Shown piece by piece: positions 78-49,636 of a stretch of DNA of 64,000 nucleotides (position 1 is its first letter; each line of letters begins with the position of its first letter). The stretch covers positions 1-64,000 of IMG/VR virus record IMGVR_UViG_3300037485_002668; one strand, 5' to 3'. The notes beneath the pieces were generated by a model. It did no database searches and had not been told where the DNA came from. It was given only the letters and a program-made list of their open reading frames with translations. This DNA is from a virus. The translations under genes and the position numbers were made by a program.

Positions 78-209
78 TGTCCCGGTGCAGGACTCGAACC
101 TACCCTATCAGGTAAATCGTTTACTTGTGGCTGGCCGTGTCACAGCCCTTTGGACTCAAGTAATTGATTATAAGCCCTGACGCTCTGAGCCAACTAAGCT
201 AACCAGGAC
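78..209 (-). ncRNA. tRNA-like RNA with a ~60-nt extension in the anticodon arm
   Basis: Reverse complement reads GTCCTGGT-TA-GCTT-AGTTGGCTCA-GAGC-G-TCAGG-[~63 nt]-CCTGA-TAGG-GTAGG-TTCGAGT-CCTGC-ACCGGGAC. Acceptor, D and T arms are canonical. The anticodon loop is replaced by a long hairpin (TTACTTG/CAAGTAA, GGCTG/CAGCC). Confidence 0.75.
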
Positions 210-5003: not shown

Positions 5004-5318
5004 TTACAAGATTGATTCCTTCGTCACCAGGACGTCGTGGTTGGTGAAATCCAGGTGAATGATGCCGTCATCGGTTTGCAGGTTAATGACGGGCGACAGG
5101 TTGTTTTGGGTTTTAATTTTGCTCAATAAAATTTTTAACCTTTTAACCTGTTCTTGTTTAATTTTCCAGGTTTCAGAAAGTTCCGACATTTCGGCAACAA
5201 TCTGAAAATACGCCGCCAGGACTTTCAAAAGCATGGGCTTTTGGTGGTCGGGTTTGAAGGCGGCGGAGGCGCCGTTGGCAGCGAAGTCAAGGATTTTGGT
5301 TAAGTCGTCTGGGGTCAT
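5004..5318 (-). CDS. hypothetical protein
   Basis: ATGA overlap with the upstream gene. Confidence 0.55.
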   Translation of the reverse strand: MTPDDLTKILDFAANGASAAFKPDHQKPMLLKVLAAYFQIVAEMSELSETWKIKQEQVKRLKILLSKIKTQNNLSPVINLQTDDGIIHLDFTNHDVLVTKESIL

Positions 5319-6493
5319 GATACTTGCACAATCGATTTAGCTTCGGGTCCATAACTGAAATAGATTGAAAGATTTTCAAAATATTTTTGAAACAAAGCTT
5401 TAAATTGTTCTGGCGAAATACTTTTTAATCTATCATATTCAATTACATAAACCTGGTCATGATCAATTTGGTCCATGCAGGTCACAACCAGGTTCAGGTT
5501 CAATTTTATAGAGCATGGCTTGATTGAGACCAAATCCTGGTCGATTAAATTTAACATAAAATTCAGATTTAGTGGAGCAAATCTGAATTCGCACTGGAAC
5601 GGATTGTAAACGTTGGTAGTTTCAATGGCGTTCGGGTATAATTTAGTTTCAGGGTTGGGCATGGGCCCCGCTCCGTGCCGGGTTAAATAGCTTCGGGTGA
5701 CATAGTAAACGTTTAGTTCCCTAATAGATGGAACTGAACGGCACAAATTGATAATATTTTTTAATCCCGTATTGGATGGCGTAACATACGGGAATGTTCC
5801 GAACGCTTGGTCTAAGCCCAATCCTTGCGCACCTTCGAAAATTAAGTGATTATAATTCAGAAAATACAGCGGCTGGGTATTGACCATAAAATAAGTCAGG
5901 TCATTTAAATATTGAATAATAATCTGGTCATGATGCTGCCAGAAATCAGATTCATAAAATTGGGTTTTTAGCTTTAATTGATTTAGCCGTTGCGGAACAT
6001 ATTCGGTTTTTATTTTAGCTAATAACCGTTTGGCGATATCCACCTGCGCAATTGAAAATTTGAATGGTTCCAATTTGTTACGTTTAATTGTTTCCCATAG
6101 GCCAATACCACAACTGCCATGTTTTTTACGCCGTTTTTGTTCAATCAATTGGTTTATAACAACGTCATAAGGCGTGGTAACAATCGCGCGTTTATCATAA
6201 AACATGGGGGGTAAACAATTAAAATTTCCAATAAACGAAGAAAATTCGTTTTTAAAAGTCATTGGATTGCAAACGAAATATTTACTTAAATACGTGCTTG
6301 CTTCAGCCAGTGCGCCAGCCCCAATGTGCCCGAATACGTGACGTTTATTTCCGTCAACCACGGTATGCGAACACTGAGCGCCGCCATTATAGCGGATTAC
6401 CAAAGAATGTTCATATTTTCGGGCAAGCCAGTCGGTAACCAAGCCTTTTCCCTCGTCACCGAAACCAGCGCCAATCACGGTAGAAGCAAGCAT
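5315..6493 (-). CDS. purA: adenylosuccinate synthetase-like protein (PurA family)
   Basis: GFGDEGKG, RYNGGAQCSHTV, HGSCGIG, FEGAQGLGLD, FPYVTPSNT, YLTRHGAGP. Confidence 0.85.
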   Translation of the reverse strand: MLASTVIGAGFGDEGKGLVTDWLARKYEHSLVIRYNGGAQCSHTVVDGNKRHVFGHIGAGALAEASTYLSKYFVCNPMTFKNEFSSFIGNFNCLPPMFYDKRAIVTTPYDVVINQLIEQKRRKKHGSCGIGLWETIKRNKLEPFKFSIAQVDIAKRLLAKIKTEYVPQRLNQLKLKTQFYESDFWQHHDQIIIQYLNDLTYFMVNTQPLYFLNYNHLIFEGAQGLGLDQAFGTFPYVTPSNTGLKNIINLCRSVPSIRELNVYYVTRSYLTRHGAGPMPNPETKLYPNAIETTNVYNPFQCEFRFAPLNLNFMLNLIDQDLVSIKPCSIKLNLNLVVTCMDQIDHDQVYVIEYDRLKSISPEQFKALFQKYFENLSIYFSYGPEAKSIVQVS

Positions 6494-7437: not shown

Positions 7438-8400
7438 TCAATAAAATGGTTTAGGGATTGGGTCATTAAAAAATTCTTTTTTCCCCCATGTGTCAATGAT
7501 AACTTGGTCCCATTGCTGATATTCAGTAATCGCGTTTTGGGACGAAACGGAATTAAACCACAAGTGCAGTGGATTCGGTAACGTCTGATTGCCTGATAAT
7601 TCAAGTCCCAGGCGGCGAATTAGTTCCAGATCAATAAAATTTTGGGTTACTTTGGGATTAACGCGGGTTAACTCCAAAGTACGTTTTGGCAGCGCCAGAA
7701 TAGGTGCATCAAAATTACTGGCGAACCAAAAGCTGGTTAATACAACATAATGTTTTTCGGGACAGATAAAACAGTTTTCAAGCGAAATATCGTGATGTAC
7801 GATTTCATTATATTGTAAAAAACAGGCTAAATCATAAAGCGAACTGATAACCCAGGCGATAGTCCGAAAATTAACTTTATGATCCCAATGATTGAATGCG
7901 TCCGCCAGCAAAATAGTTTCGGGATCATAGGTGGTAACAACCAGGAGGCCATTTTCACAATTTTCGGCTTTAGTGATTTTGGACAGCCTGGAATCAAATT
8001 CCTGGCGCATAGCAGCATTTACGAATTTTAACGAATTCAATTTATCAATGGCGTTGGCAACCAATATTTTGAATTCAGTCTTGACAAAATAAATGACGTT
8101 GTTTTTGCAAATAAACATTTCCCCAAAATCCAGGACGTTTGTTTTTTGGGGATAAATGATCATTTTTTTACCCGAATCCAGTTTGAATGCCCTGGCGTTT
8201 TCAGGTAAATCCCAAAGTCCGCTGGCAATTAGTTGTTTGGCTTCATTATAAAGCGAATTGATGTGTAAAAATATACTATCATCAATACCGCCATTGGCAT
8301 CCGGGTGCCAAATTTTGCAAAGTTGCCGGTAGTTTTTTTCCAGGTCATTACCGAACAGGACTTTGGGATTTTGAATTTTTAGAATTTCGGCTGCGTTCAT
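7438..8400 (-). CDS. J-domain plus kinase-like fold protein
   Basis: YRQLCKIWHPD J-domain motif; VHHDISLENCFI resembles a kinase catalytic loop. Confidence 0.7.
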   Translation of the reverse strand: MNAAEILKIQNPKVLFGNDLEKNYRQLCKIWHPDANGGIDDSIFLHINSLYNEAKQLIASGLWDLPENARAFKLDSGKKMIIYPQKTNVLDFGEMFICKNNVIYFVKTEFKILVANAIDKLNSLKFVNAAMRQEFDSRLSKITKAENCENGLLVVTTYDPETILLADAFNHWDHKVNFRTIAWVISSLYDLACFLQYNEIVHHDISLENCFICPEKHYVVLTSFWFASNFDAPILALPKRTLELTRVNPKVTQNFIDLELIRRLGLELSGNQTLPNPLHLWFNSVSSQNAITEYQQWDQVIIDTWGKKEFFNDPIPKPFY

Positions 8401-9002
8401 AATGCGCGTTTTAGGATTAATTGTTTTTCAAGCCATTGAAGTGCAATGATGGTCTTGGCATCACAAATTTCGCCTTGTCGAGCCATATTAAGCGCTTCGG
8501 TTAATGAGAAGTTTTCAATTTTAATATCTTCGTTTTCAGTTACAACGCCGCCGCCATCGTTTTTTTTGTCTTTTAACGTAACGGGGGCTGCGTATAAATA
8601 AATATATTCTGAGCTGCCTCCGGGGGAAACGAAAAAGCTGGAAATATAATACAAGGCTCCGGTCAATTTAAATCCAGATTCTTCAAATACTTCTCGTTCA
8701 GCGCAATCAATAGGAAGTTCATTTTTTCCGACCATGCCGGCAATTGTTTCCAGTACCCATCCACGGTCATGATATGGGCGAGGATCAAATACATGCGCGG
8801 GATAGCGGAATTGTCGCGTTAGCCAGACCTGAGCGGGGTCAGATTGATAAAGCAATACGGCAACGCTGCTGCCACGTTCAAAACACAAGCGCTTGATTTC
8901 GGCGGACATTTGCCCGTTGAATTTTTCGTGTTTCAAAACGGCTTCGTCGATTTTGAAAAAGCCGTCGAACACGCGGGTATTTTTGATGATTTCGACTTTC
9001 AT
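8397..9002 (-). CDS. Nudix hydrolase, ADP-ribose pyrophosphatase (NudF/YffH-like)
   Basis: QFRYP; Nudix box AGMV...AEREVFEESG; SPGGSSE; ENEDI; DAKTIIALQW. Confidence 0.9.
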   Translation of the reverse strand: MKVEIIKNTRVFDGFFKIDEAVLKHEKFNGQMSAEIKRLCFERGSSVAVLLYQSDPAQVWLTRQFRYPAHVFDPRPYHDRGWVLETIAGMVGKNELPIDCAEREVFEESGFKLTGALYYISSFFVSPGGSSEYIYLYAAPVTLKDKKNDGGGVVTENEDIKIENFSLTEALNMARQGEICDAKTIIALQWLEKQLILKRAL

Positions 9003-9016
9003 GGTGATCTCCGTTT

Positions 9017-9229
9017 TTAAAAATATTGTCCAGGATGCGGACCGTAATGGTCAACTTCCGTCTGTAACAAATCGTTTAATTCTTTAGCTGAGGACAAGAC
9101 GCATTTGGTTAATTGGCCGTGGCTGTTTCTTATATACAAAAGGTCTTGAGATGCGAGTACCGTCGAAACTTGCGAAAGGTCAGTTTCGATTTCCTGGCCG
9201 TCGGTAGTGGTGATTTTAAAGTTAAGCAT
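9017..9229 (-). CDS. hypothetical protein
   Basis: ORF; start placed at MLNFKI after GGAG. Confidence 0.45.
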   Translation of the reverse strand: MLNFKITTTDGQEIETDLSQVSTVLASQDLLYIRNSHGQLTKCVLSSAKELNDLLQTEVDHYGPHPGQYF

Positions 9230-9359
9230 GGTTTGTGCTCCGAATAAAAGTTTTTTTGCCATTGCAGGGTGAAATGAAAAAAATCAGTCATTTCGTTTTG
9301 GTCGGCAAAGTCAATTGAATTTTGAACCACCAGCATAATCCCTCCGAAAACAAAGGTGG

Positions 9360-9710
9360 TTAATTGTATTTTAATTCTTTATAAATTGCGGCAATCAAGT
9401 GATAACGTTTTTGTTCATAATAATCTAATTCCACCCACGGTTTAATAAGGGGGCTGGTTTGTAATATAGGATTAAACACTTTGCTATAAGACCAGCCTTC
9501 ATTTTTAAAATGGTCAATCCAGACATCATAATGTGGTATCTGGTCGTACAAATGGAAAAAGGTCATTCCTAAAATATAAAATGATGATTCACCTGGATAT
9601 TTTGACCAGTCTATCTGTGAATAATCCTGGCAAAATGACCGATTGAAAGCGCGTACCGCCTCGTAACAGATACTGGCGATATAGATTAGTGATTGGGGAA
9701 TATCAGACAT
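9360..9710 (-). CDS. RyR-domain-like phage protein
   Basis: W..H...GWSY...SPLIKPWVELDYYEQK resembles the RyR repeat (HP.LVP...L...Q). Confidence 0.5.
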   Translation of the reverse strand: MSDIPQSLIYIASICYEAVRAFNRSFCQDYSQIDWSKYPGESSFYILGMTFFHLYDQIPHYDVWIDHFKNEGWSYSKVFNPILQTSPLIKPWVELDYYEQKRYHLIAAIYKELKYN

Positions 9711-10746: not shown

Positions 10747-10836
10747 AATATATAAAAATTTTTTGACTTTGTCAAGAGAAATTTTGCAAAAATTTTTAAA
10801 AAAAGGGTTGACTTGAAAAATATTTTTACGTATATT
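10747..10836. promoter_or_regulatory. divergent sigma70-type promoter pair
   Basis: Minus strand TTGACA-N17-TATATT (10775-10747); plus strand TTGACT-N17-TATATT (10808-10836). Confidence 0.8.
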
Positions 10837-12142: not shown

Positions 12143-13654
12143 ATGGAAACCTTACTTGCCGAGGGGCAGTTGCAGGTATTTAACCTGCTCAAAAATGGGT
12201 GCCAGCATTTGTGGCATCGGGGGAAACCAGATCAAGCGAAAATTGAGGGGGTCTTAAAAGAATTTTATCCGTTAACGTTTCAAGACCCAAATTTCCTGGC
12301 GCACTTGGCCTGTTGGTCGTTGCGGCAGGATATGAAAGATCTGAAAGTAATTTCGATTTACCTGAATTTTTTGTCTTCAGCCGACGGGACGGCGTTTGAC
12401 CGGGAGGCTAATTTGTTCCGGCCGAATTTGCGGATTGTAAGTTCGGCGGCGGTGCAAAAGTTGGACGTGCCTTTGACCCTGCGGGTGCTGCAATTGGGAA
12501 AAACCAAATATGAAATTCAGCCAGGGGTAAAAAGTACGCATTGTCCCGTGACGTTACGGACAGCAGTTGGGAAATACCTGGCGTATCGGCAGCATTTACC
12601 GGCAACGTTAGCGGGAATCAAGGCGCAGGGCTTGCGCAAAAAGTATCTGGCAATTTATCGGGCGTTGCATCGGCGGGTACCGGCTGAAGTTTTGGCGGCA
12701 TTCAAGGCGGATACCTTAATTGAAAAGTTCGGGGGGACGTCAGAAGAAATTGTAAGCCAGATTGAAAAAACGGCCAAATCGGTGCCGGTAATTTTATCAA
12801 TGCTGGAAAAATCGGCCATTAGCCCATTGGTGGCGGTGGCGCTGCTGGAACGGTGCACGCCAAAACAGGTCGTGGTTTATCAGGCTTTGTTTGAGGAACT
12901 GGGGCTGCTGGCGGTACCGGAAGTGGCGGAAATATTTGCGGCAAAAGCGGCCATGGCGGGGGCCAGCGTGGATCGCTTAAAAGTCAAGGGCGTACCGGCC
13001 ACGGAACAATTAAAACAGGAAATCCAGGCGCAGGCGCATAAGGCGGCGGTCGGGTCGGTTGGCAAAGTGTATCTGCATTTGGACGTTTCGGGTTCCATGC
13101 GAACGTCGATTGACTGGGCCAAGAAATACACGGCAAAAATTGCGGCGGCCATTCAAGACCCGGCGAATAATCTAAAGATTGGGACGTTTCAGACGATTGG
13201 ACAGGAATTGCCGGCACCGGGTGGTTATACCCAGGCGCATTTTGAAAAGTTATTTTTTGGCGTCAATAGTTTTGGCGGAACGATGTGCCACGCGTTATGG
13301 GAGAAATCCCGGACGTGGGGGGCGGACGTGGACGTATTTGTTACCGACCAAAAGCATAATGACGGAACAGCGGAAAGCAGTCCCGGCTACATTCAGGATT
13401 TGGCGGATCATTTTGCTAAATTTTCCAGACCCAAGGCGGTGGTGATTGTGAACGTCGGGGTGCATACCTCAATTTTAAGACAGGCGTTTGAACGGGTGGG
13501 GGTACCCGTGACGGAAATTTTGGGGTCGGATTTGGAAAAGTCACAAGGGATTGGGGAGGTGCTGAGGACGGCACTGAAGGGGTCGCTGGCGATAGTTGAG
13601 GAAATTATGGCGACGCCGTTGGTTGAATTGCCAAAATGGTGGTGGGCGGTATAA
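12143..13654 (+). CDS. TROVE/Ro60-like helical domain plus C-terminal vWA protein
   Basis: DPNFLAHLACWSLRQDMKD resembles the TROVE N-terminal DPxFxAxL motif; helical body; vWA MIDAS LDVSGSM...GGT...VTD. Confidence 0.7.
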   Translation: METLLAEGQLQVFNLLKNGCQHLWHRGKPDQAKIEGVLKEFYPLTFQDPNFLAHLACWSLRQDMKDLKVISIYLNFLSSADGTAFDREANLFRPNLRIVSSAAVQKLDVPLTLRVLQLGKTKYEIQPGVKSTHCPVTLRTAVGKYLAYRQHLPATLAGIKAQGLRKKYLAIYRALHRRVPAEVLAAFKADTLIEKFGGTSEEIVSQIEKTAKSVPVILSMLEKSAISPLVAVALLERCTPKQVVVYQALFEELGLLAVPEVAEIFAAKAAMAGASVDRLKVKGVPATEQLKQEIQAQAHKAAVGSVGKVYLHLDVSGSMRTSIDWAKKYTAKIAAAIQDPANNLKIGTFQTIGQELPAPGGYTQAHFEKLFFGVNSFGGTMCHALWEKSRTWGADVDVFVTDQKHNDGTAESSPGYIQDLADHFAKFSRPKAVVIVNVGVHTSILRQAFERVGVPVTEILGSDLEKSQGIGEVLRTALKGSLAIVEEIMATPLVELPKWWWAV

Positions 13655-14109: not shown

Positions 14110-14937
14110 TTGAATGCTAAAATTCAAAATATTTTGGCGGCGCAAAAAGAGGCGATTGTGCCTGTCTGGAAAGGCGTTTTTTCCCATCGGCAGCGAAAAT
14201 TTAAAGTCGATTGGAATGACGGCTGGTACTGGGTGAAATACGCGGACGCGGGTATCCTGGAAGCCAGAAAACTGTCATTGTTGGAAATTCAGATGGTCAG
14301 CCAGAAATGGAAATGCTACCTGGGGTATCTGGTCAATAACGGCTTTTATTTTGCGCAGCCGGCACAGGAAAAAGAATTCAATCGGGCAAAAGCTGACGTT
14401 TCGGCGGTATTTCGGTCATATCCCGTGCGTTTCTGGCAGGGGCTGGATACCTGGCAGGAAGTGCGGGTTTGTGAACGGGATGGCGATCTATATTTCGTTC
14501 AGACTGAAATGCCGTCGGCTTTATTTTTGCAGGTATACGGACGTTACCAGAATCAAGAGCGGATTGACAGTATTCCAGGTTTGACGCCGGCGTTGCGGAA
14601 TTTGTTTTGGGTTACCTGTTTGCAGGATCAATTTTTACAGGAACAGGCGGAACAATCGGCGCGGGAACGATTTAGTCAGACGCTGGAAGGGCGAATTCGA
14701 AACGCGCTGGAATTGGGCGGCGCGGAGTATATTTCGCATCGGCAGGTGGGTCAGCGGTTGAATGTATTTTGGCGGGTCGGGGGTGTGCAATTTGATTCGG
14801 TGGTGGATTTGAATTTGCGGGGGGTGGAATTGGGCTTTTGTTTATCGGGGGAGGATCAAAAGCATACGTTGGTTAGTGCGCCGATTTTGGCGCGGGAATA
14901 TATTCAAAACGATGAATTGGTGATTTTACGGAGGTAA
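14110..14937 (+). CDS. conserved-Cys protein (GFCLSGED), candidate E2-like transfer enzyme
   Basis: C-terminal domain RIRNALELGGAE...GFCLSGEDQKHTLVS; between the vWA and JAB genes. Confidence 0.55.
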   Translation: MNAKIQNILAAQKEAIVPVWKGVFSHRQRKFKVDWNDGWYWVKYADAGILEARKLSLLEIQMVSQKWKCYLGYLVNNGFYFAQPAQEKEFNRAKADVSAVFRSYPVRFWQGLDTWQEVRVCERDGDLYFVQTEMPSALFLQVYGRYQNQERIDSIPGLTPALRNLFWVTCLQDQFLQEQAEQSARERFSQTLEGRIRNALELGGAEYISHRQVGQRLNVFWRVGGVQFDSVVDLNLRGVELGFCLSGEDQKHTLVSAPILAREYIQNDELVILRR

Positions 14938-15330
14938 ATGAACGCTTTAAAATTCATTCGGGAATCCGGGGCGGTGATAATTGACGGGTACGTTATTCAG
15001 GTCAAAGTAGGGACGGAACTGAACGTGGAATTTGACTTTATGGCGGCCTGGGAAATTATTAAATGTTTACCGAAACAGTTTAGAATGCTGCGATTAATTC
15101 ATGTGCACCCGGATGGTATACAGGAACCCTCCCGTCAGGATTGGCTAGTACTGAAAGCCTGGCAAAGGGCTTTGGGGTCAAAATTTATGGTTACCATGGA
15201 AATCTTGACCGTGGATGGGGTGCGGACGTTTGCACCTGAAGGTAAAGAGGTGAATTCGGCTTTTAGTAATGAAATTTTTGAACTTTTAATTGATTTGAGT
15301 TATTTGCGCAGGGATTGTTATTGGTTATAA
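14938..15330 (+). CDS. JAB/MPN+ metallo-isopeptidase
   Basis: HVHPDGIQEPSRQD matches the JAMM motif HxH-x7-S-x2-D. Confidence 0.8.
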   Translation: MNALKFIRESGAVIIDGYVIQVKVGTELNVEFDFMAAWEIIKCLPKQFRMLRLIHVHPDGIQEPSRQDWLVLKAWQRALGSKFMVTMEILTVDGVRTFAPEGKEVNSAFSNEIFELLIDLSYLRRDCYWL

Positions 15331-15339
15331 GGAGAAGAC

Positions 15340-15885
15340 ATGTCAGTAAGCAGGAAAACATTTTACGCAAATCGGGCGAACAACAAACTGGTCTATTTAG
15401 ATCAATTTGGGGTATCGCGGGTTATTTCGGGAATGATTGTAAGTTCGCACAGTGACGAATTATTGATTTATTTGCCAAACGAGGAGCCAGTCGGGGAACG
15501 AATAATTTTAACCCCTTCCAGGGAAGATTGGGAATCGCTTTTGAAAACATTGGATAATCCAAGCTATTTTGAAATGGACACAGACGGGAAAACGGTAAAA
15601 GCGATTCATCGGAAGTGCCAGCGGAAAGTCGGCGGCGATTTGCAATGGAAAATTTGGCGGCGGGATGGCTTTAAGTGTGTTTATTGCGGCGCTCAGGGGG
15701 GCATTAATAACATCACTTTGAGCATAGACCATTTTATTCCAGTCGAACGCGGGGGAACCGATACTGAAAACAATTTAATTTCGGCCTGTCGGAAATGTAA
15801 TCGCAAAAAGGCGGATTTAATGCCGCAACAATTTTTGACGCTAGGCGAATTCGAACGGATTGAAAAATTATTGGGGCGGTCATGA
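15340..15885 (+). CDS. HNH endonuclease with N-terminal extension
   Basis: RDGFKCVYCG...IDHFIP..RGG...NL...CRKCNRKK. Confidence 0.9.
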   Translation: MSVSRKTFYANRANNKLVYLDQFGVSRVISGMIVSSHSDELLIYLPNEEPVGERIILTPSREDWESLLKTLDNPSYFEMDTDGKTVKAIHRKCQRKVGGDLQWKIWRRDGFKCVYCGAQGGINNITLSIDHFIPVERGGTDTENNLISACRKCNRKKADLMPQQFLTLGEFERIEKLLGRS

Positions 15886-16451
15886 AAAGAATGGTTATTT
15901 TCGGGGTGGGGACGCTGGGCAGTCATTTTGCGCTGCTGGCGGCGGATACGTTCCGAAATGAATGTGAATATAAAATTATCGATTTTGACAAGGTCGAAAA
16001 GCGAAATTTCAGAACGCAGGCATACTGGCCGATTTACGAAAATAAGTTCAAAGTAGAGGCGCTGCAAAGTCTGATTTGGGGTAAGACGGGCGTTCTGGTT
16101 GATCCGTGGAAAACGTGCGTTAAGTCCAGGGAACATTTTACAGGTTATGATTTGGTCGTGGAGGTGGTCGATAATCCGGAATCGATAGCCCTGACCAAGG
16201 GGTTGAATTGTCCGGTATTGCATTTGAAATTTATCATTCAGGATGGAAAGCCGGTCGGGTCGATTTTGTGGGATGAAAAGTACAATTTTGGCGGCGCGGC
16301 AAAAAATGGTGTCGACCCGTGTGATGTGGAAGGGATGCTGGCTTTTGCGTGGGTGATGGCCGGGCATGCGGTTTGGGTCGTAAACCGATTTTTGACGCAG
16401 GGGGTAAAAGAAAATCGGGTAATTACTTTGAATAACGTGCAAATTTTTTAA
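15882..16451 (+). CDS. ThiF/E1-like adenylyltransferase
   Basis: GVGTLGS, IDFDKVEKRNFRTQ, KVEAL, VVDN; candidate catalytic Cys in VDPCD. Confidence 0.85.
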   Translation: MKRMVIFGVGTLGSHFALLAADTFRNECEYKIIDFDKVEKRNFRTQAYWPIYENKFKVEALQSLIWGKTGVLVDPWKTCVKSREHFTGYDLVVEVVDNPESIALTKGLNCPVLHLKFIIQDGKPVGSILWDEKYNFGGAAKNGVDPCDVEGMLAFAWVMAGHAVWVVNRFLTQGVKENRVITLNNVQIF

Positions 16452-16459
16452 AAAATCTA

Positions 16460-16488
16460 TTGACATTATAATTTTATTTACGTATATT
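16460..16488 (+). promoter_or_regulatory. sigma70-type promoter for the ncRNA cluster
   Basis: TTGACA-N17-TATATT, 22 nt upstream of the first RNA. Confidence 0.8.
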
Positions 16489-16510
16489 ATACCAGTTATT
16501 TGACATATAT

Positions 16511-16664
16511 GCGGGACTAGATCAAAGTCTGGCCGTAAGGCTGGATTTGTAATTAACCTGAATTACCCACAAGGTTACCTTGTTTTTAAGTCAGGTCACA
16601 TGCAAATTGGTAGATCAATAGATTTCTAATCTATACGTTCTCGGTTCGAGTCCGAGGTCCCGCT
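16511..16664 (+). ncRNA. tRNA-Arg(TCT) scaffold with an ~81-nt insertion in the D-loop
   Basis: GCGGGAC-TA-GATC-AA-[16526-16606]-TTGGTA-GATC-A-ATAGA-TTTCTAA-TCTAT-ACGTT-CTCGG-TTCGAGT-CCGAG-GTCCCGC-T. Confidence 0.8.
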
Positions 16665-16672
16665 CTGATTTT

Positions 16673-16806
16673 GGGGAGATGGCGAAATGGCAAACGCAAA
16701 CGTATTGGAACGTTCATTATTTGAGCAGGCTTTTACGCCCACGAGTTACGCTCGTTCATGTATAAGCTTACATGCAATTTTCCAGGTTCGAATCCTGGTC
16801 TCCCCA
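16673..16806 (+). ncRNA. tRNA-like RNA with a 6-nt anticodon loop and a ~67-nt variable region
   Basis: GGGGAGA-TG-GCG-AAATGGCAAA-CGC-A-AACGT-ATTGGA-ACGTT-[16715-16781]-CCAGG-TTCGAAT-CCTGG-TCTCCCC-A. Confidence 0.75.
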
Positions 16807-16809
16807 CAA

Positions 16810-16878
16810 TGGGGTTCCTGTTTTCGGGCTGAGTAACTTTTGGCGGGGTTTGCTCGCCTGGAAGTCAAGGGGCCTCAT
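16810..16878 (+). ncRNA. long imperfect hairpin RNA, third element of the ncRNA transcript
   Basis: GGGGTTCCT/AGGGGCCTC, TTTTCGGGC/GCCTGGAAG and GAGTAAC/GTTTGCTC pairings before the terminator. Confidence 0.45.
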
Positions 16879-16900
16879 TTTCATGGTATCTCCAAAATAG

Positions 16901-16931
16901 AAAAAGCCGTTCAGCGATGAGCGGCTTTTTT
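16901..16931 (+). terminator. intrinsic terminator (bidirectional)
   Basis: aaaaagccgttca-gcga-tgagcggcttttt. Confidence 0.8.
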
Positions 16932-17078
16932 ATTTTATCCGGCCGGTGACGAAACCAGCCTTTTTGATTGTAAATTTGGTGAAAGTTAACGGGCGGTTAT
17001 GAGTTTTAAAAATTTGGGTGATTTTGGTGAAATAAAAAGGCCGGAAACGGGTATCCGGCCGGTGGGGAAAGTAGACCT

Positions 17079-17411
17079 TTAGGAGTCGGTTCTTTTATAA
17101 AGTCCGACCATGCCCATTGAAATAAGCTTGTCTACGGAACATTTTTCAGTTGCCGCTGGCATATCGATTTCATGTTTGTATACCCACTGAAGGTAATACT
17201 TCCATTCGTTTAGCCGTTCAAAGGGGTCTGTACTTCTATACATGTGCCAAGTTCGGGCGTCCACTTTTTTAGGATCGTAAACATTAGCGACCCATCTTTT
17301 TTTGCAAATACCGTTGGTAAAATGATCTGCCAAAACGTTTAACTCTTTACAGGATTGGCAATCAAATTTTTCGGTTTGAGAACCGTCAATTGTTTTGAGA
17401 ATATCATTCAT
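17079..17411 (-). CDS. hypothetical protein
   Basis: ORF with GAGG RBS. Confidence 0.55.
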   Translation of the reverse strand: MNDILKTIDGSQTEKFDCQSCKELNVLADHFTNGICKKRWVANVYDPKKVDARTWHMYRSTDPFERLNEWKYYLQWVYKHEIDMPAATEKCSVDKLISMGMVGLYKRTDS

Positions 17412-17466: not shown

Positions 17467-18381
17467 TTACAGTTCTAAGTTGACCGGTGTTCCAAAGAAA
17501 TCCACAACTTCCTGGTCGGGGGAGTCATGGAAATAAAACATGATCGTTGTTTTGATGTCGGCATGGCCGAGATATTTTTGAATATACTGGGCGGCGGAAA
17601 TCCCTTTGCCAGAAGACTCCAATATTTTTTTCAGGTGCATGGCGCAGGAATGCCTAGCCGTATGCGTGCCAATGACAAATCCGGTATGCGCCATGCCACG
17701 CCGTAAAATATTGAAGTAATTCGGCTGGCATAATCGGGTACCGCGTTTTGATTCAAATAGCCACACTTTAGAATTGCATACTTCCTTGATTTGGTTGAAC
17801 AGGTCTACTTTACAATAGACCGTGCGGCTTTTGTGACCCTTGCCATCCTGTACTACGACTTGGATGGCATTTTTATTTTGGGAAAGCTCACAATCCGTTA
17901 GCTTAACGTTTACGGCTTCGTTGATTCGCATTCCCGTTTGGAATTGGAACAGGAATAACAGCCGTTCTCTTGCTGGTAATGAATCGGCATGTTTATAAAT
18001 TTCCTCTTCCGTGAGGTATTCATTCCGTCTGATTGCCCGGTCTTGTTTAATGCAGGGAGCGATTCGGGCGATGTGCATTTTTAAGGCCGCGATGGATGTA
18101 ACTCTTCCGTCAAATTCAGGCTGGCCTTGAATGAAATATAATAGCGCGGCTTTGCCGATTTCACGGGCCGAGGCTCCCCAGTTGGAACGCGATTCAAAGA
18201 AACGCTTGATTGTTTCCAGGCTTATCGTTAGCCCGTACTTTGCCATGAATTCGTTGAATCCGATAGCAATTCTTTTATATTCGTAGATTGTTTTGTCAGC
18301 CAGGGGACGGATAGACGTGGGTTGTACGTCCAGGCGAAGTTGACTAATGGTAGTGGTTTGGGTGGTGGTTAGGGTTTCCAT
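17467..18381 (-). CDS. tyrosine recombinase/integrase
   Basis: TGMRINE, GKGHKSR, HTARH, LGHADIKTT..Y catalytic motifs. Confidence 0.9.
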   Translation of the reverse strand: METLTTTQTTTISQLRLDVQPTSIRPLADKTIYEYKRIAIGFNEFMAKYGLTISLETIKRFFESRSNWGASAREIGKAALLYFIQGQPEFDGRVTSIAALKMHIARIAPCIKQDRAIRRNEYLTEEEIYKHADSLPARERLLFLFQFQTGMRINEAVNVKLTDCELSQNKNAIQVVVQDGKGHKSRTVYCKVDLFNQIKEVCNSKVWLFESKRGTRLCQPNYFNILRRGMAHTGFVIGTHTARHSCAMHLKKILESSGKGISAAQYIQKYLGHADIKTTIMFYFHDSPDQEVVDFFGTPVNLEL

Positions 18382-49115: not shown

Positions 49116-49636
49116 ATTGCGTCCTTTTTCGCCTGGTATAAATCCCAAAGCTTGGTATATTGCGACAGCAATAAATTACTCAATTCCATATCGGTTTTAA
49201 CCCAGGCTTCCACCTCGGCCAAATCCTGGCGGCTGGGGAATAACGGCTGGTCTTCCATGGTTTTCAAAAAACGGGGAATAATTTTCTGCATGGAAACCAA
49301 CATCGACATATTTTCCGCGATTTGTTCCGCCCGATTTACGGGCTTGGACTTTTCCATATTCTCACGGGATTTTGCATCCGTGATGCGTTCGAGCCGTTGC
49401 CGCCATTCCTTTTCATTCACCGGCACGTCTTCGAAACCCTCGGCGCAGGCCAGGGCGTATTCACGTTCCCGAACATAGGTTTGTTCGCGTAAAATGTCGG
49501 TCATATCCAGACCTGAAATTTTGACCGGCACGGATTTATCGTTACCCGATTCATCTTTACCGAGCGGCCAGTCGAAAATAACTTCAATTTTTTTTTGTTG
49601 CTGCGCGTCGCGAATTAATTGCAGGGTGGTACTCAT
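49079..49636 (-). CDS. tail assembly chaperone (gpG-like)
   Basis: Between the major tail and tape measure genes; slippery site near the 3' end. Confidence 0.75.
   Translation of the reverse strand: MSTTLQLIRDAQQQKKIEVIFDWPLGKDESGNDKSVPVKISGLDMTDILREQTYVREREYALACAEGFEDVPVNEKEWRQRLERITDAKSRENMEKSKPVNRAEQIAENMSMLVSMQKIIPRFLKTMEDQPLFPSRQDLAEVEAWVKTDMELSNLLLSQYTKLWDLYQAKKDAIKNSSAEPNATK
49109..49115 (-). other. programmed -1 frameshift heptamer A AAA AAC
   Basis: ATA-AAA-AAC-TCT in frame 0 shifts to AAA-CTC-TTC-AGC-GGA (KLFSG) of the downstream ORF. Confidence 0.8.

What the first reader, a model, noticed from the sequence alone, without database searches (positions are those of the whole stretch)
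16511..16806. The same 40-nt module is grafted into two tRNA scaffolds at two different positions
Seen: RNA A is a canonical tRNA-Arg(UCU) once 16526-16606 is removed from its D-loop. RNA B has a 67-nt variable region and a 6-nt anticodon loop. Both inserts contain CCCAC-stem-GTTAC-stem-GTT (16566-16584; 16738-16756), then exactly 13 nt, then ACATGCAA (16598-16605; 16770-16777). The stems vary while pairing is kept (ACAAGG/CCTTGT versus ACGAG/CTCGT). Inference: this is a protein-binding module, most likely for the adjacent TROVE/vWA protein, that uses tRNA bodies for processing and stability. Alternatively it is a small excisable intron, or a variable 13-nt guide next to a constant handle.
Basis: partly seen in the sequence, partly recalled or inferred. 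Interest (0 to 1): 0.85.

Follow-up and report, generated by a model that had tools for sequence, protein, structure and literature searches.

The report
Handle-tagged tRNA mimics beside phage Ro60-like gene
Two tRNA-shaped RNAs of an uncultured 99-kb phage each carry the same small folded "handle"; this handle recurs in tRNA look-alikes next to a Ro60-shaped ring protein in many unrelated phages, so the RNAs are probably that protein's partners, in a form I found in neither Rfam nor the papers searched.

Summary
RNA A (16511-16664) becomes a canonical tRNA-Arg(UCU) once the D-loop insert is removed. RNA B (16673-16806) passes Rfam's tRNA threshold, with a 6-nt anticodon loop and a giant variable region. 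Both carry the shared 40-nt stretch.

The module is about 52 nt: outer helix P1, internal loop, inner hairpin P2, then a single-stranded tail (ACAUGCAA). The "13-nt variable" stretch is the 3' strand of P1, not a guide.

The neighbouring 503-aa protein has no Pfam hit but folds like Ro60. Sixteen other phage loci with its homologues keep the same gene set: Ro60-like, p275, JAB-like, HNH and ThiF-like. Most also carry tRNA look-alikes with this handle (tail UACAAGCA) in the D-loop, 26/27 junction, anticodon loop, variable loop or 5' leader.

A covariance model built only from other phages shows covariation at 16 of 16 pairs. It ranks the two window modules first and second in the whole window and finds nothing in 884 kb of unrelated viral DNA.

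Best reading (about 0.6): a Y-RNA-like handle for the Ro60-like ring, with the tRNA body as effector or decoy. An excisable intron is not excluded.

This scan reported similar handle/Ro60-like systems earlier on other genomes.

The parts
16460..16488 (+). sigma-70-like promoter TTGACA-17-TATATT, about 22 nt before RNA A
   Evidence: 11 of 12 matches. It is a consensus match only; such sites are not enriched in this region.
16511..16664 (+). RNA A: a complete tRNA-Arg(UCU) cloverleaf with an 81-nt insert in the D-loop
   Evidence: ARAGORN calls tRNA-Arg(tct) once 16526-16606 is removed. Rfam gives a partial tRNA match at 16602-16656. The fold has z = -4.9.
16527..16546 (+). extra GNRA-capped hairpin (loop GUAA) at the 5' end of RNA A's insert; RNA B has none
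   Evidence: MFE fold and direct reading of the sequence.
16555..16606 (+). handle module of RNA A: P1 16556-16565 with 16587-16596, P2 16569-16574 with 16578-16583 (loop UUA), tail CACAUGCAAA 16597-16606
   Evidence: With model R1, built from other phages only, it is the second-best hit in the window (14.3 bits, E 0.44, full model length). With R2 it scores 21.9 bits, E 0.013.
16673..16806 (+). RNA B: a tRNA-shaped RNA with a 6-nt anticodon loop AUUGGA and an insert of about 65 nt in the variable region
   Evidence: Rfam tRNA 41 bits, E 3e-5. ARAGORN after deletion gives tRNA-? with a 6-nt loop.
16727..16779 (+). handle module of RNA B: P1 16727-16736 with 16760-16769, P2 16741-16746 with 16750-16755 (loop UAC), tail ACAUGCAAUU 16770-16779
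   Evidence: Best hit of R1 in the whole window (18.3 bits, E 0.061).
16802..16814 (+). small hairpin CCCCA-CAA-UGGGG plus a U-rich run, overlapping RNA B's 3' acceptor strand
   Evidence: Its function is not tested.
16900..16931 (+). strong intrinsic-terminator-like hairpin that closes the RNA unit
   Evidence: 14 pairs followed by a T run.
12143..13654 (+). 503-aa Ro60-like protein: helical TROVE-like ring plus a vWA domain with DxSxS
   Evidence: AF2 model with pLDDT 77. Foldseek: 9kop E 2.4e-9, 9l5y, 2i91, 1yvp, 2nvo. No Pfam TROVE or DUF2828 match. A profile search finds 485 cluster representatives.
14110..14937 (+). p275, a conserved partner of unknown fold with an invariant Cys244
   Evidence: tblastn finds it in all 16 IMG/VR loci. 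Alignment A2. AF2 pLDDT 87. No clear PDB match.
14938..15330 (+). p130, a weak JAB-like protein and conserved partner
   Evidence: Pfam RadC/Prok-JAB E 0.03-0.09. tblastn finds it in 11 loci.
15340..15885 (+). HNH endonuclease, a conserved partner
   Evidence: Pfam HNH E 3e-13. tblastn finds it in 8 loci.
15882..16451 (+). short ThiF/E1-like protein immediately upstream of the RNAs
   Evidence: Pfam ThiF E 2.9e-5, below the curated cut-off. tblastn finds it in all 16 IMG/VR loci and in KX853510.

Best explanation
RNA A and RNA B are non-coding tRNA mimics that carry a portable 'handle'.

The handle is a two-helix arm of about 52 nt (P1, internal loop, P2). It is followed by a conserved single-stranded tail, ACAUGCAA here and UACAAGCA in relatives.

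The handle is most likely the docking site for the phage's own Ro60-like ring protein (12143-13654). This would parallel Y RNAs docking on Ro60.

The handle projects from places where a tRNA tolerates expansions: the D-loop in A and the variable loop in B. The L-shaped tRNA body therefore stays free to engage tRNA-binding factors, either host enzymes or host anti-tRNA defences.

What is shown:
- the handle structure and its covariation;
- its recurrence on tRNA-like bodies;
- its genetic linkage to the Ro60-like gene cluster.

What is inferred:
- that the Ro60-like protein is the binder;
- that the inserts stay in the mature RNA;
- what the tRNA body recruits.
For: 1. The protein is Ro60-like by fold.
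2. Rfam finds oversized tRNA hits of 99-150 nt near its homologues in six other loci (L127, L128, L129, L134, L136, L137). Each ends its insert with YACAAGCA or a close variant of it.
3. A seed of nine modules from five other phages fits the P1/P2 model:
   - 87.5% of cells are paired, against 62% in shuffles and 32-44% when the partner is slid;
   - 16 of 16 pairs show changes on both sides.
   The 21-sequence alignment gives the same picture, with frequent G-U pairs. That points to RNA rather than duplex DNA.
4. Model R1 holds no window sequence, yet it ranks the two window modules first and second among both strands of the 64 kb.
5. R2 gives 24 hits with E < 0.01 in the 20 sources searched (the window, the rest of its genome and the loci that carry the gene). 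All are on the strand of the Ro60-like gene in the 14 sources that gave a match, that is the window and 13 of the 17 other loci.
6. In five phage genomes of 93-253 kb, 10 of 12 hits lie within 5 kb of the gene. The other two sit inside tRNA look-alikes in a tRNA array.
7. Controls: no hit in 884 kb of unrelated viral DNA and none in a further 260 kb.
8. RNA B keeps a 6-nt anticodon loop even without its insert. It is a mimic, not an interrupted working tRNA.
9. Precedent: YrlA-type tRNA-mimicking Y RNAs are encoded next to Ro60 in bacteria and phages (PMC4201824). Thermus phage phiLo Ro60 binds two adjacent Y-like RNAs (PMC12135203).
Against: - No binding or expression data exist.
- The whole five-gene cluster is conserved together, so linkage cannot tell which protein binds the handle. 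p275 has OB-like barrels and is an equally placed candidate.
- The known Ro60-contact motifs (GGUCCGA; GNCGAAN0-1G) are absent from the handle, and the Rfam YrlA model does not match.
- The window's two modules are the most divergent members. Their R1 scores are individually marginal (E 0.06 and 0.44).
- RNA A is a perfect tRNA-Arg once the insert is removed. That is also what an intron would look like.
- My RNA-first reverse test failed for technical reasons.
Confidence: 0.6

Rival explanations
1. The handle is a small intron-like or mobile insertion. It is cut out, and the tRNA re-ligated, by phage or host enzymes, giving working tRNAs. Its varying position reflects transposition among tRNA genes, as with archaeal tRNA introns.
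For: - RNA A minus the insert is a canonical tRNA-Arg(UCU).
- In relatives the insert is a clean addition that leaves every tRNA element intact. In L128 a full 7-nt UUUGGAA anticodon loop follows the handle.
- Insertion sites differ between copies.
- The conserved tail always marks the 3' edge of the insert.
- The phage encodes an RNA_ligase-family protein at genome position 74316-74864.
Against: - RNA B has a 6-nt anticodon loop after removal. By my reading, several relatives have non-canonical loops (no U33, or a pyrimidine at position 37).
- The handle also sits directly 5' of complete tRNAs and in acceptor-stem-only mini RNAs, where no splicing is possible.
- No 5'-edge motif is conserved.
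- No group I intron or ribozyme family matches.
- The phage has no RtcB, and the ligase gene lies 58 kb away.
- Selection on P1/P2 pairing and the tight linkage to one protein cluster suggest a functional RNA domain.
Confidence: 0.13
2. The handle binds a different protein of the conserved cluster. Candidates are p275 with its OB-like barrels, or the ThiF/E1-like, JAB-like or HNH proteins. The Ro60-like ring would then act on something else.
For: - All five proteins co-occur with the handle.
- In the window and in L126 the RNAs lie just downstream of the ThiF-like gene.
- p275 residues 67-140 weakly resemble the cold-shock/S1 barrels of RNase II and RNase R.
Against: - Only Ro60 has an established habit of pairing with adjacent tRNA-like RNAs (PMC4201824, PMC12135203).
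- In L123, L124, L133 and L137 handles lie directly upstream of the Ro60-like gene.
- The structural matches for p275 are weak (Z below 6).
Confidence: 0.17
3. The module is a processing or transcription signal: a phage-specific promoter, an RNase site or a self-cleaving ribozyme. It would release tRNA 3' portions that start at the conserved tail.
For: - The distance between P2 and the tail is fixed at about 14-16 nt.
- In some relatives the tail's GCA forms the first bases of a complete tRNA.
- Copies occur in tandem before successive tRNA-like units.
Against: - Covarying RNA helices with G-U pairs do not fit a duplex-DNA promoter.
- The perfectly complementary 5' and 3' acceptor strands flanking the inserts show selection on the uncut full-length RNA.
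- No Rfam ribozyme family matches.
Confidence: 0.06
4. The 13 nt between the hairpin and ACAUGCAA are a variable guide next to a constant handle, for example for the phage's array-less type IV-B Cas module.
For: The stretch differs between A and B while its flanks are constant.
Against: In A, in B and across the family, the stretch is the 3' strand of P1 plus an internal loop, and it covaries with the upstream strand.
Confidence: 0.02

Closest known systems
YrlA-type bacterial and phage Y RNAs with Ro60/Rsr (Chen et al. 2014, PMC4201824; Thermus phage phiLo Ro60 with Yrl1 and Yrl2, PMC12135203)
   Same: Small RNAs are encoded next to a Ro60-shaped TROVE plus vWA protein. Each combines a tRNA-like domain with a separate protein-docking helix. 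There are several copies per locus, and the system occurs in phages.
   Different: - Here the RNA is a whole cloverleaf in native tRNA order, and the acceptor stem forms the RNA ends. In YrlA the ends form the Ro60-binding stem.
- The docking element is a closed two-helix arm plus a UACAAGCA-type tail, inserted at varying tRNA positions.
- The CGAA/GGUCCGA contact motif is absent.
- Rfam's YrlA model does not match.
- The protein is invisible to Pfam TROVE.
- It travels with the ThiF-like, JAB-like, HNH and p275 genes, not with rtcBA.
Non-canonical tRNA introns of Thermoproteales archaea, where related introns sit at different tRNA positions (from my own knowledge, not checked here)
   Same: Related inserts sit at different positions (D-loop, anticodon loop, variable loop) of different tRNA genes, and removing them restores a cloverleaf.
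   Different: The host setting here is bacterial (sigma-70-like promoter, intrinsic terminators). I did not assess a bulge-helix-bulge motif. The handle also occurs outside tRNAs, and some of the tRNA bodies are defective decoders.
Class I RNAs of dictyostelid amoebae (PMC7919456)
   Same: A short helix is directly followed by a conserved, unstructured motif of about 11 nt. From memory that motif reads CCUUACAGCAA; the paper confirms U3, C6, C9, A10 and A11. The phage tail reads CUUACAAGCAA.
   Different: There is one extra base in the phage tail. The helix is a closed hairpin rather than the paired 5' and 3' ends. No Rfam family other than tRNA came near its threshold in the E-value scan; I did not check that Rfam holds a Class I model. 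The known Class I binder is an RRM protein. This is a resemblance only, and it may be chance.
Handle-tagged RNAs beside Ro60-like/DUF2828 proteins, reported earlier by this scan on other genomes (e1-5661083, e1-5713386, e1-5467699, e1-5378700, e1-5924251, e1-5759219)
   Same: A helix plus an ACAGCA/CAGCAA/ACAAU-type tail on tRNAs and tRNA mimics next to a Ro60-shaped phage protein.
   Different: In this lineage the tail carries an extra A or U (ACAAGCA, ACAUGCA). The protein matches neither DUF2828 nor TROVE by sequence. The cluster includes the ThiF-like, JAB-like, HNH and p275 genes. Those notes are unchecked AI reports.

Membership tests
Ro60/Y-RNA ribonucleoprotein (YrlA type) | The RNA gene lies next to a Ro60 (TROVE plus vWA) gene | tested here: met
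   The RNAs lie 2.9 kb downstream of a protein whose model matches Ro60 structures over its full length. The same linkage holds in 13 of the 17 other loci that carry the gene and in whole genomes.
Ro60/Y-RNA ribonucleoprotein (YrlA type) | The protein matches the TROVE family by sequence | tested here: not met
   No Pfam TROVE or vWA_Ro60 hit for the protein or its 12 homologues. Only distant relatives show vWA hits.
Ro60/Y-RNA ribonucleoprotein (YrlA type) | The 5' and 3' ends of the RNA pair into a long stem that carries the Ro60 site (GGUCCGA / GNCGAAN0-1G) | tested here: not met
   The ends form a 7-bp tRNA acceptor stem. The conserved element is an internal hairpin plus tail, and no such motif lies in the handle (motif taken from PMC4201824).
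Ro60/Y-RNA ribonucleoprotein (YrlA type) | A tRNA-like domain | tested here: met
   Full cloverleaves.
Ro60/Y-RNA ribonucleoprotein (YrlA type) | A match to an Rfam Y RNA or YrlA covariance model | tested here: not met
   Only tRNA appears at gathering thresholds. No Y RNA family appears at E up to 10 in 16000-17300.
Ro60/Y-RNA ribonucleoprotein (YrlA type) | Physical binding of the RNA to Ro60 | not testable with these tools
   Needs EMSA, pull-down or RIP.
tRNA (RF00005) | Cloverleaf scoring above the Rfam gathering threshold | tested here: met
   RNA B scores 41 bits against 29. RNA A scores only 24.6 bits and partially, but ARAGORN calls tRNA-Arg after the insert is removed.
tRNA (RF00005) | A 7-nt anticodon loop able to decode | tested here: inconclusive
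   Met for RNA A (UUUCUAA). Not met for RNA B (the 6-nt AUUGGA). Aminoacylation is not testable here.
Phage P1-P2-UACAAGCA handle (family defined here, models R1 and R2) | Two nested helices with an internal loop, then a YACAAGCA tail, on the strand of the Ro60-like gene, in or beside a tRNA-like RNA | tested here: met
   Full-length alignment to R1, with ranks 1 and 2 in the window. Both helices are present in A and B. The tail differs at one base (ACAUGCA). The 5' internal loop is CCC(A) rather than ACUU.
Bacterial group I tRNA introns or small self-cleaving ribozymes | A match to an Rfam intron or ribozyme model | tested here: not met
   No such hit at gathering or at E up to 10. The inserts of 81 and about 65 nt are far shorter than group I introns.
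Archaeal-type tRNA introns | A bulge-helix-bulge motif at both exon-intron junctions | not tested
   I ran no systematic BHB search. The setting is bacterial.
Dictyostelid Class I RNAs | A terminal stem formed by the RNA ends plus an 11-nt motif; a match to an Rfam model | tested here: inconclusive
   The handle helix is a closed hairpin rather than the paired RNA ends, so that part of the feature is not met. Only the tail resembles the motif, with a 1-nt indel. No family other than tRNA came near its threshold, but I did not check that Rfam holds a Class I model.

The most novel reading that the evidence does not exclude
The handle is a portable RNA address tag. It loads tRNA-shaped RNAs onto a machine built from the Ro60-like ring together with the E1-like (ThiF), JAB-like, HNH and Cys-bearing p275 proteins. 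That would couple a ubiquitin-like or adenylation chemistry to tRNA mimics, for example to trap, mark or disarm host factors that attack or sense tRNAs during infection.
Probability: 0.12. Interest if true: 0.9.

Novelty: new variant of a known kind. Interest (0 to 1): 0.7.

Why it matters
Ro60 and its Y RNAs are conserved from bacteria to humans, yet what the tRNA-like half of bacterial Y RNAs does remains unclear.

This lineage shows the same logic built differently. A docking handle is grafted into otherwise complete tRNAs, at whatever position the tRNA fold tolerates. It is tied to a Ro60-shaped protein that sequence methods miss and to an E1/JAB-type gene set.

It offers three things:
- a natural set of "tRNA scaffold plus aptamer-like arm" designs;
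- a covariance model for annotating RNAs that tRNA finders currently skip (ARAGORN missed all of them);
- a testable system for asking how phages use tRNA mimicry in conflicts over the host's tRNA pool.

Tried and rejected
- Exact-pattern scans of IMG/VR for the window's own motif (TTTG..CCCAC..ACATGCAA; CCCAC-N11-GTT-N13-ACATGCAA) gave only chance matches. The window's variant of the handle is so far unique to this phage.
- Single-protein searches for close relatives of the 503-aa, ThiF-like and capsid proteins in IMG/VR found none. Relatives appeared only with an alignment query.
- blastn against GenBank phages found only a tRNA T-arm match.
- RNA-first reverse test: the tandem pattern CTTACAAGCA-N95-125-CTTACAAGCA returned 33 stretches.
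  - Apart from the contigs of L126 and L134, those I read were almost all protein-coding repeats; one (L161) had the motif in a tRNA anticodon loop by chance.
  - None matched R1.
  - None of the 24 records that could be searched held the 503-aa family (run without a positive control).
  - Four held a DUF2828 gene.
  - The test says nothing about linkage and served only as an extra negative control.
- p275 has no convincing fold match (Foldseek best E 0.047; VIA best Z 5.7 on short stretches).
- ARAGORN's intron mode gave arbitrary readings (Leu and Pro with introns, and a 'SeC' inside a long open frame at 49227-49406), which I discarded.
- The weak R2 hit at 10755-10794 is an AT-rich promoter region, not a handle.
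- The weak Rfam DUF2693 RNA and BTnc231 hits lie far below their thresholds.

Full report
**Setting.** The window is the first 64 kb of a 99,244-bp IMG/VR phage genome with direct terminal repeats. It has no close relative in IMG/VR or GenBank phages.

**The observation.**
- The motif CCCAC-N27-ACATGCAA occurs twice in the window, at 16566-16605 and 16738-16777. Shuffles give 0.02 expected.
- ARAGORN in default mode sees neither RNA.
- Rfam's tRNA model scores RNA B (16673-16806) at 41 bits, with a long insertion in the variable region. It matches only the 3' two-thirds of RNA A (24.6 bits).
- Removing 16526-16606 turns RNA A into an ARAGORN tRNA-Arg(tct) of 74 nt.
- Removing RNA B's insert leaves a cloverleaf with a 6-nt anticodon loop.
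- A sigma-70-like promoter (16460-16488) precedes the pair and a strong terminator-like hairpin (16900-16931) follows it.

**Anatomy of the module.** Folding and direct reading show that the shared element is longer than 40 nt.
- In both RNAs, sequence upstream of CCCAC pairs with the "13-nt variable" stretch.
- In A the pairs are ACCUGA/UCAGGU and UUA/UAA. In B they are AGGCUU/AAGCUU and UAC/GUA.
- This outer helix P1 encloses an internal loop and the 6-bp hairpin P2. A single-stranded tail, ACAUGCAA, follows.
- Most P1 pairs differ between A and B by compensatory changes.

**The neighbouring protein.**
- The 503-aa ORF (12143-13654) has no Pfam, PHROG or PDB sequence match.
- It has 12 homologues at about 35% identity. 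The alignment shows a DxSxS motif.
- An AlphaFold model (pLDDT 77) matches Ro60 structures over its full length: the TROVE domain entry 9kop (E 2.4e-9), Thermus phage phiLo Ro60 9l5y, Xenopus and human Ro60, and Deinococcus Rsr. Isolated vWA domains follow in the list.
- Pfam TROVE and DUF2828 do not detect it even in a one-genome search.
- A profile of the family finds 485 cluster representatives in 1.84 billion proteins. Ten of them were scanned against Pfam: the nine more distant ones show only vWA-type hits, and the one close relative among them shows none.

**Relatives.**
- An alignment query found 16 IMG/VR loci with this protein. A distant homologue lies in Virus Rctr197k, beside a 30-tRNA array.
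- tblastn shows that p275, the JAB-like p130, the HNH nuclease and the ThiF-like protein travel with it.
- Most loci lie in or next to tRNA arrays.
- Rfam found oversized tRNA hits of 99-150 nt close to the gene in L127, L128, L129, L134, L136 and L137. ARAGORN had missed them.
- In each, the insert ends with YACAAGCA or a close variant of it, preceded by a two-helix arm.
- By my reading, the arm sits in several places:
  - the D-loop (L129, L126 twice, L137);
  - the junction between the D arm and the anticodon arm (L127);
  - the anticodon loop (L128, where an intact UUUGGAA loop follows it);
  - the variable loop (L127, L130 twice, L131, L136 twice, L126, L139);
  - directly 5' of complete tRNAs (L126, L128, L131, L137);
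  - a mini RNA made of an acceptor stem only (L126).

**Statistics.**
- A seed of nine modules from five other phages (A5) fits the structure I proposed. In it 87.5% of cells are paired, against 62% in shuffles and 32-44% with slid partners. All 16 pairs change on both sides.
- Model R1, built from this seed alone, was run over the whole window with filters off. Its two best hits, both full length, are RNA B's module (18.3 bits, E 0.061) and RNA A's module (14.3 bits, E 0.44).
- Each E-value is marginal alone. Both land on the predicted 52-nt spots out of 128 kb searched.
- R2, rebuilt from 21 hits including B but not A, scores A at E 0.013.
- R2 gives 24 hits with E < 0.01 in the 20 sources searched (the window, the rest of its genome and the loci that carry the gene). 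Matches fell in the window and 13 of the 17 other loci, all on the strand of the Ro60-like gene.
- Covariation holds on the 21-sequence alignment, with many G-U pairs.
- In five phage genomes of 93-253 kb, 10 of 12 hits lie within 5 kb of the gene. The other two are inside tRNA look-alikes in a distant tRNA array.
- Controls gave no hit in 884 kb or in a further 260 kb of unrelated viral DNA.
- The family consensus reads: P1, ACUU, P2 (RGA...UCY), a short 3' loop, P1', UACAAGCAA. The window's copies are its most divergent members, with CCC(A) for ACUU and ACAUGCA for ACAAGCA.

**Interpretation.**
- The closest known system is Ro60 with YrlA-type Y RNAs. These are tRNA-mimicking RNAs encoded beside Ro60 in more than 250 bacteria and phages (PMC4201824). 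Thermus phage phiLo Ro60 binds two adjacent Y-like RNAs (PMC12135203).
- By analogy, the handle is the docking site for the Ro60-like ring and the tRNA body is the effector or decoy half.
- Differences are substantial. The RNA keeps native tRNA order, with the acceptor stem at its ends. The docking element is an inserted closed arm plus tail. The CGAA-type motif is absent. Rfam's Y RNA models do not match. The protein is a sequence-invisible lineage with different gene partners.
- The guide idea is rejected by the covariation.
- The intron idea remains possible for RNA A. It fits poorly with RNA B's defective anticodon loop, with handles in 5' leaders, and with the lack of a conserved 5' edge.
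- The phage has no RtcB. It does have an RNA_ligase-family gene 58 kb away.
- Linkage cannot say which of the five conserved proteins binds the handle.

**Literature and earlier notes.**
- Searches for phage tRNA inserts and for TROVE/ThiF/JAB combinations found no description of this RNA.
- Earlier AI notes of this scan report similar "helix plus ACAGCA-type tail" handles beside Ro60-like or DUF2828 proteins in other phages. They also note a resemblance to dictyostelid Class I RNAs.
- I checked the latter only so far as the paper's stated conserved positions. They fit the phage tail with a 1-nt indel. I treat this as a lead.

**Limits.**
- There are no expression or binding data.
- The RNA-first reverse test was swamped by coding repeats.

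Noticed in passing
window 78-209 (-): A third oversized tRNA-like gene: Rfam tRNA 35.9 bits with about 63 nt inserted in the anticodon loop. ARAGORN's intron mode reads Ile(UAU) with a 54-nt insert. The insert forms a hairpin closed by ACUUG/CAAGU and contains CCACAAGUAA, which looks like the handle tail. Neither R1 nor R2 matches it.
   Followed up: partly
window 5315-6493 (-): An ORF matches phrog_1211 (PurZ-like adenylosuccinate synthetase, E 5e-52). This hints that the phage may replace adenine with 2-aminoadenine in its DNA.
   Followed up: no
window 14110-14937 (+): p275 is conserved next to the Ro60-like gene in all 16 IMG/VR loci. Its model is confident (pLDDT 87), but no clear PDB fold matches. 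The N-terminal barrels weakly resemble cold-shock/S1 domains. The C-terminal part, with the invariant Cys244 (EAGFCxSGxD), weakly resembles E2/RWD-like domains (FANCL centre Z 4.7-4.9, Cap2 Z 4.3).
   Followed up: partly
genome G000:C1:74316-74864 (-), outside the window: A 420-aa ORF matches Pfam RNA_ligase (PF09414, E 3e-23). The phage has no RtcB.
   Followed up: no
L122 (KX853510.1, Virus Rctr197k) 7638-9587: A distant homologue (27% identity) of the Ro60-like protein is annotated only as a misc_feature. It sits at the end of a 30-tRNA array, with a ThiF-like gene 7 kb downstream. R2 found no handle there.
   Followed up: partly
L136 14292-14422 and about 14520-14650: In this relative both handle-bearing tRNA look-alikes encode a 3' CCA after the discriminator base. 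The window's RNA A and RNA B do not.
   Followed up: no
window 16802-16814 (+): The hairpin CCCCA-CAA-UGGGG, followed by a U-rich run, uses RNA B's 3' acceptor strand. It could compete with the acceptor stem or act as a weak terminator.
   Followed up: no
window 17467-18381 (-): A tyrosine integrase gene (Pfam Phage_integrase, E 1e-22) lies 660 nt downstream of the tRNA-like pair, in a phage whose genome has direct terminal repeats.
   Followed up: no
L137 6074-6391, L129 2451-2752, L127 2655-3032: Three phages that carry the Ro60-like gene also encode a tmRNA inside their tRNA arrays.
   Followed up: no
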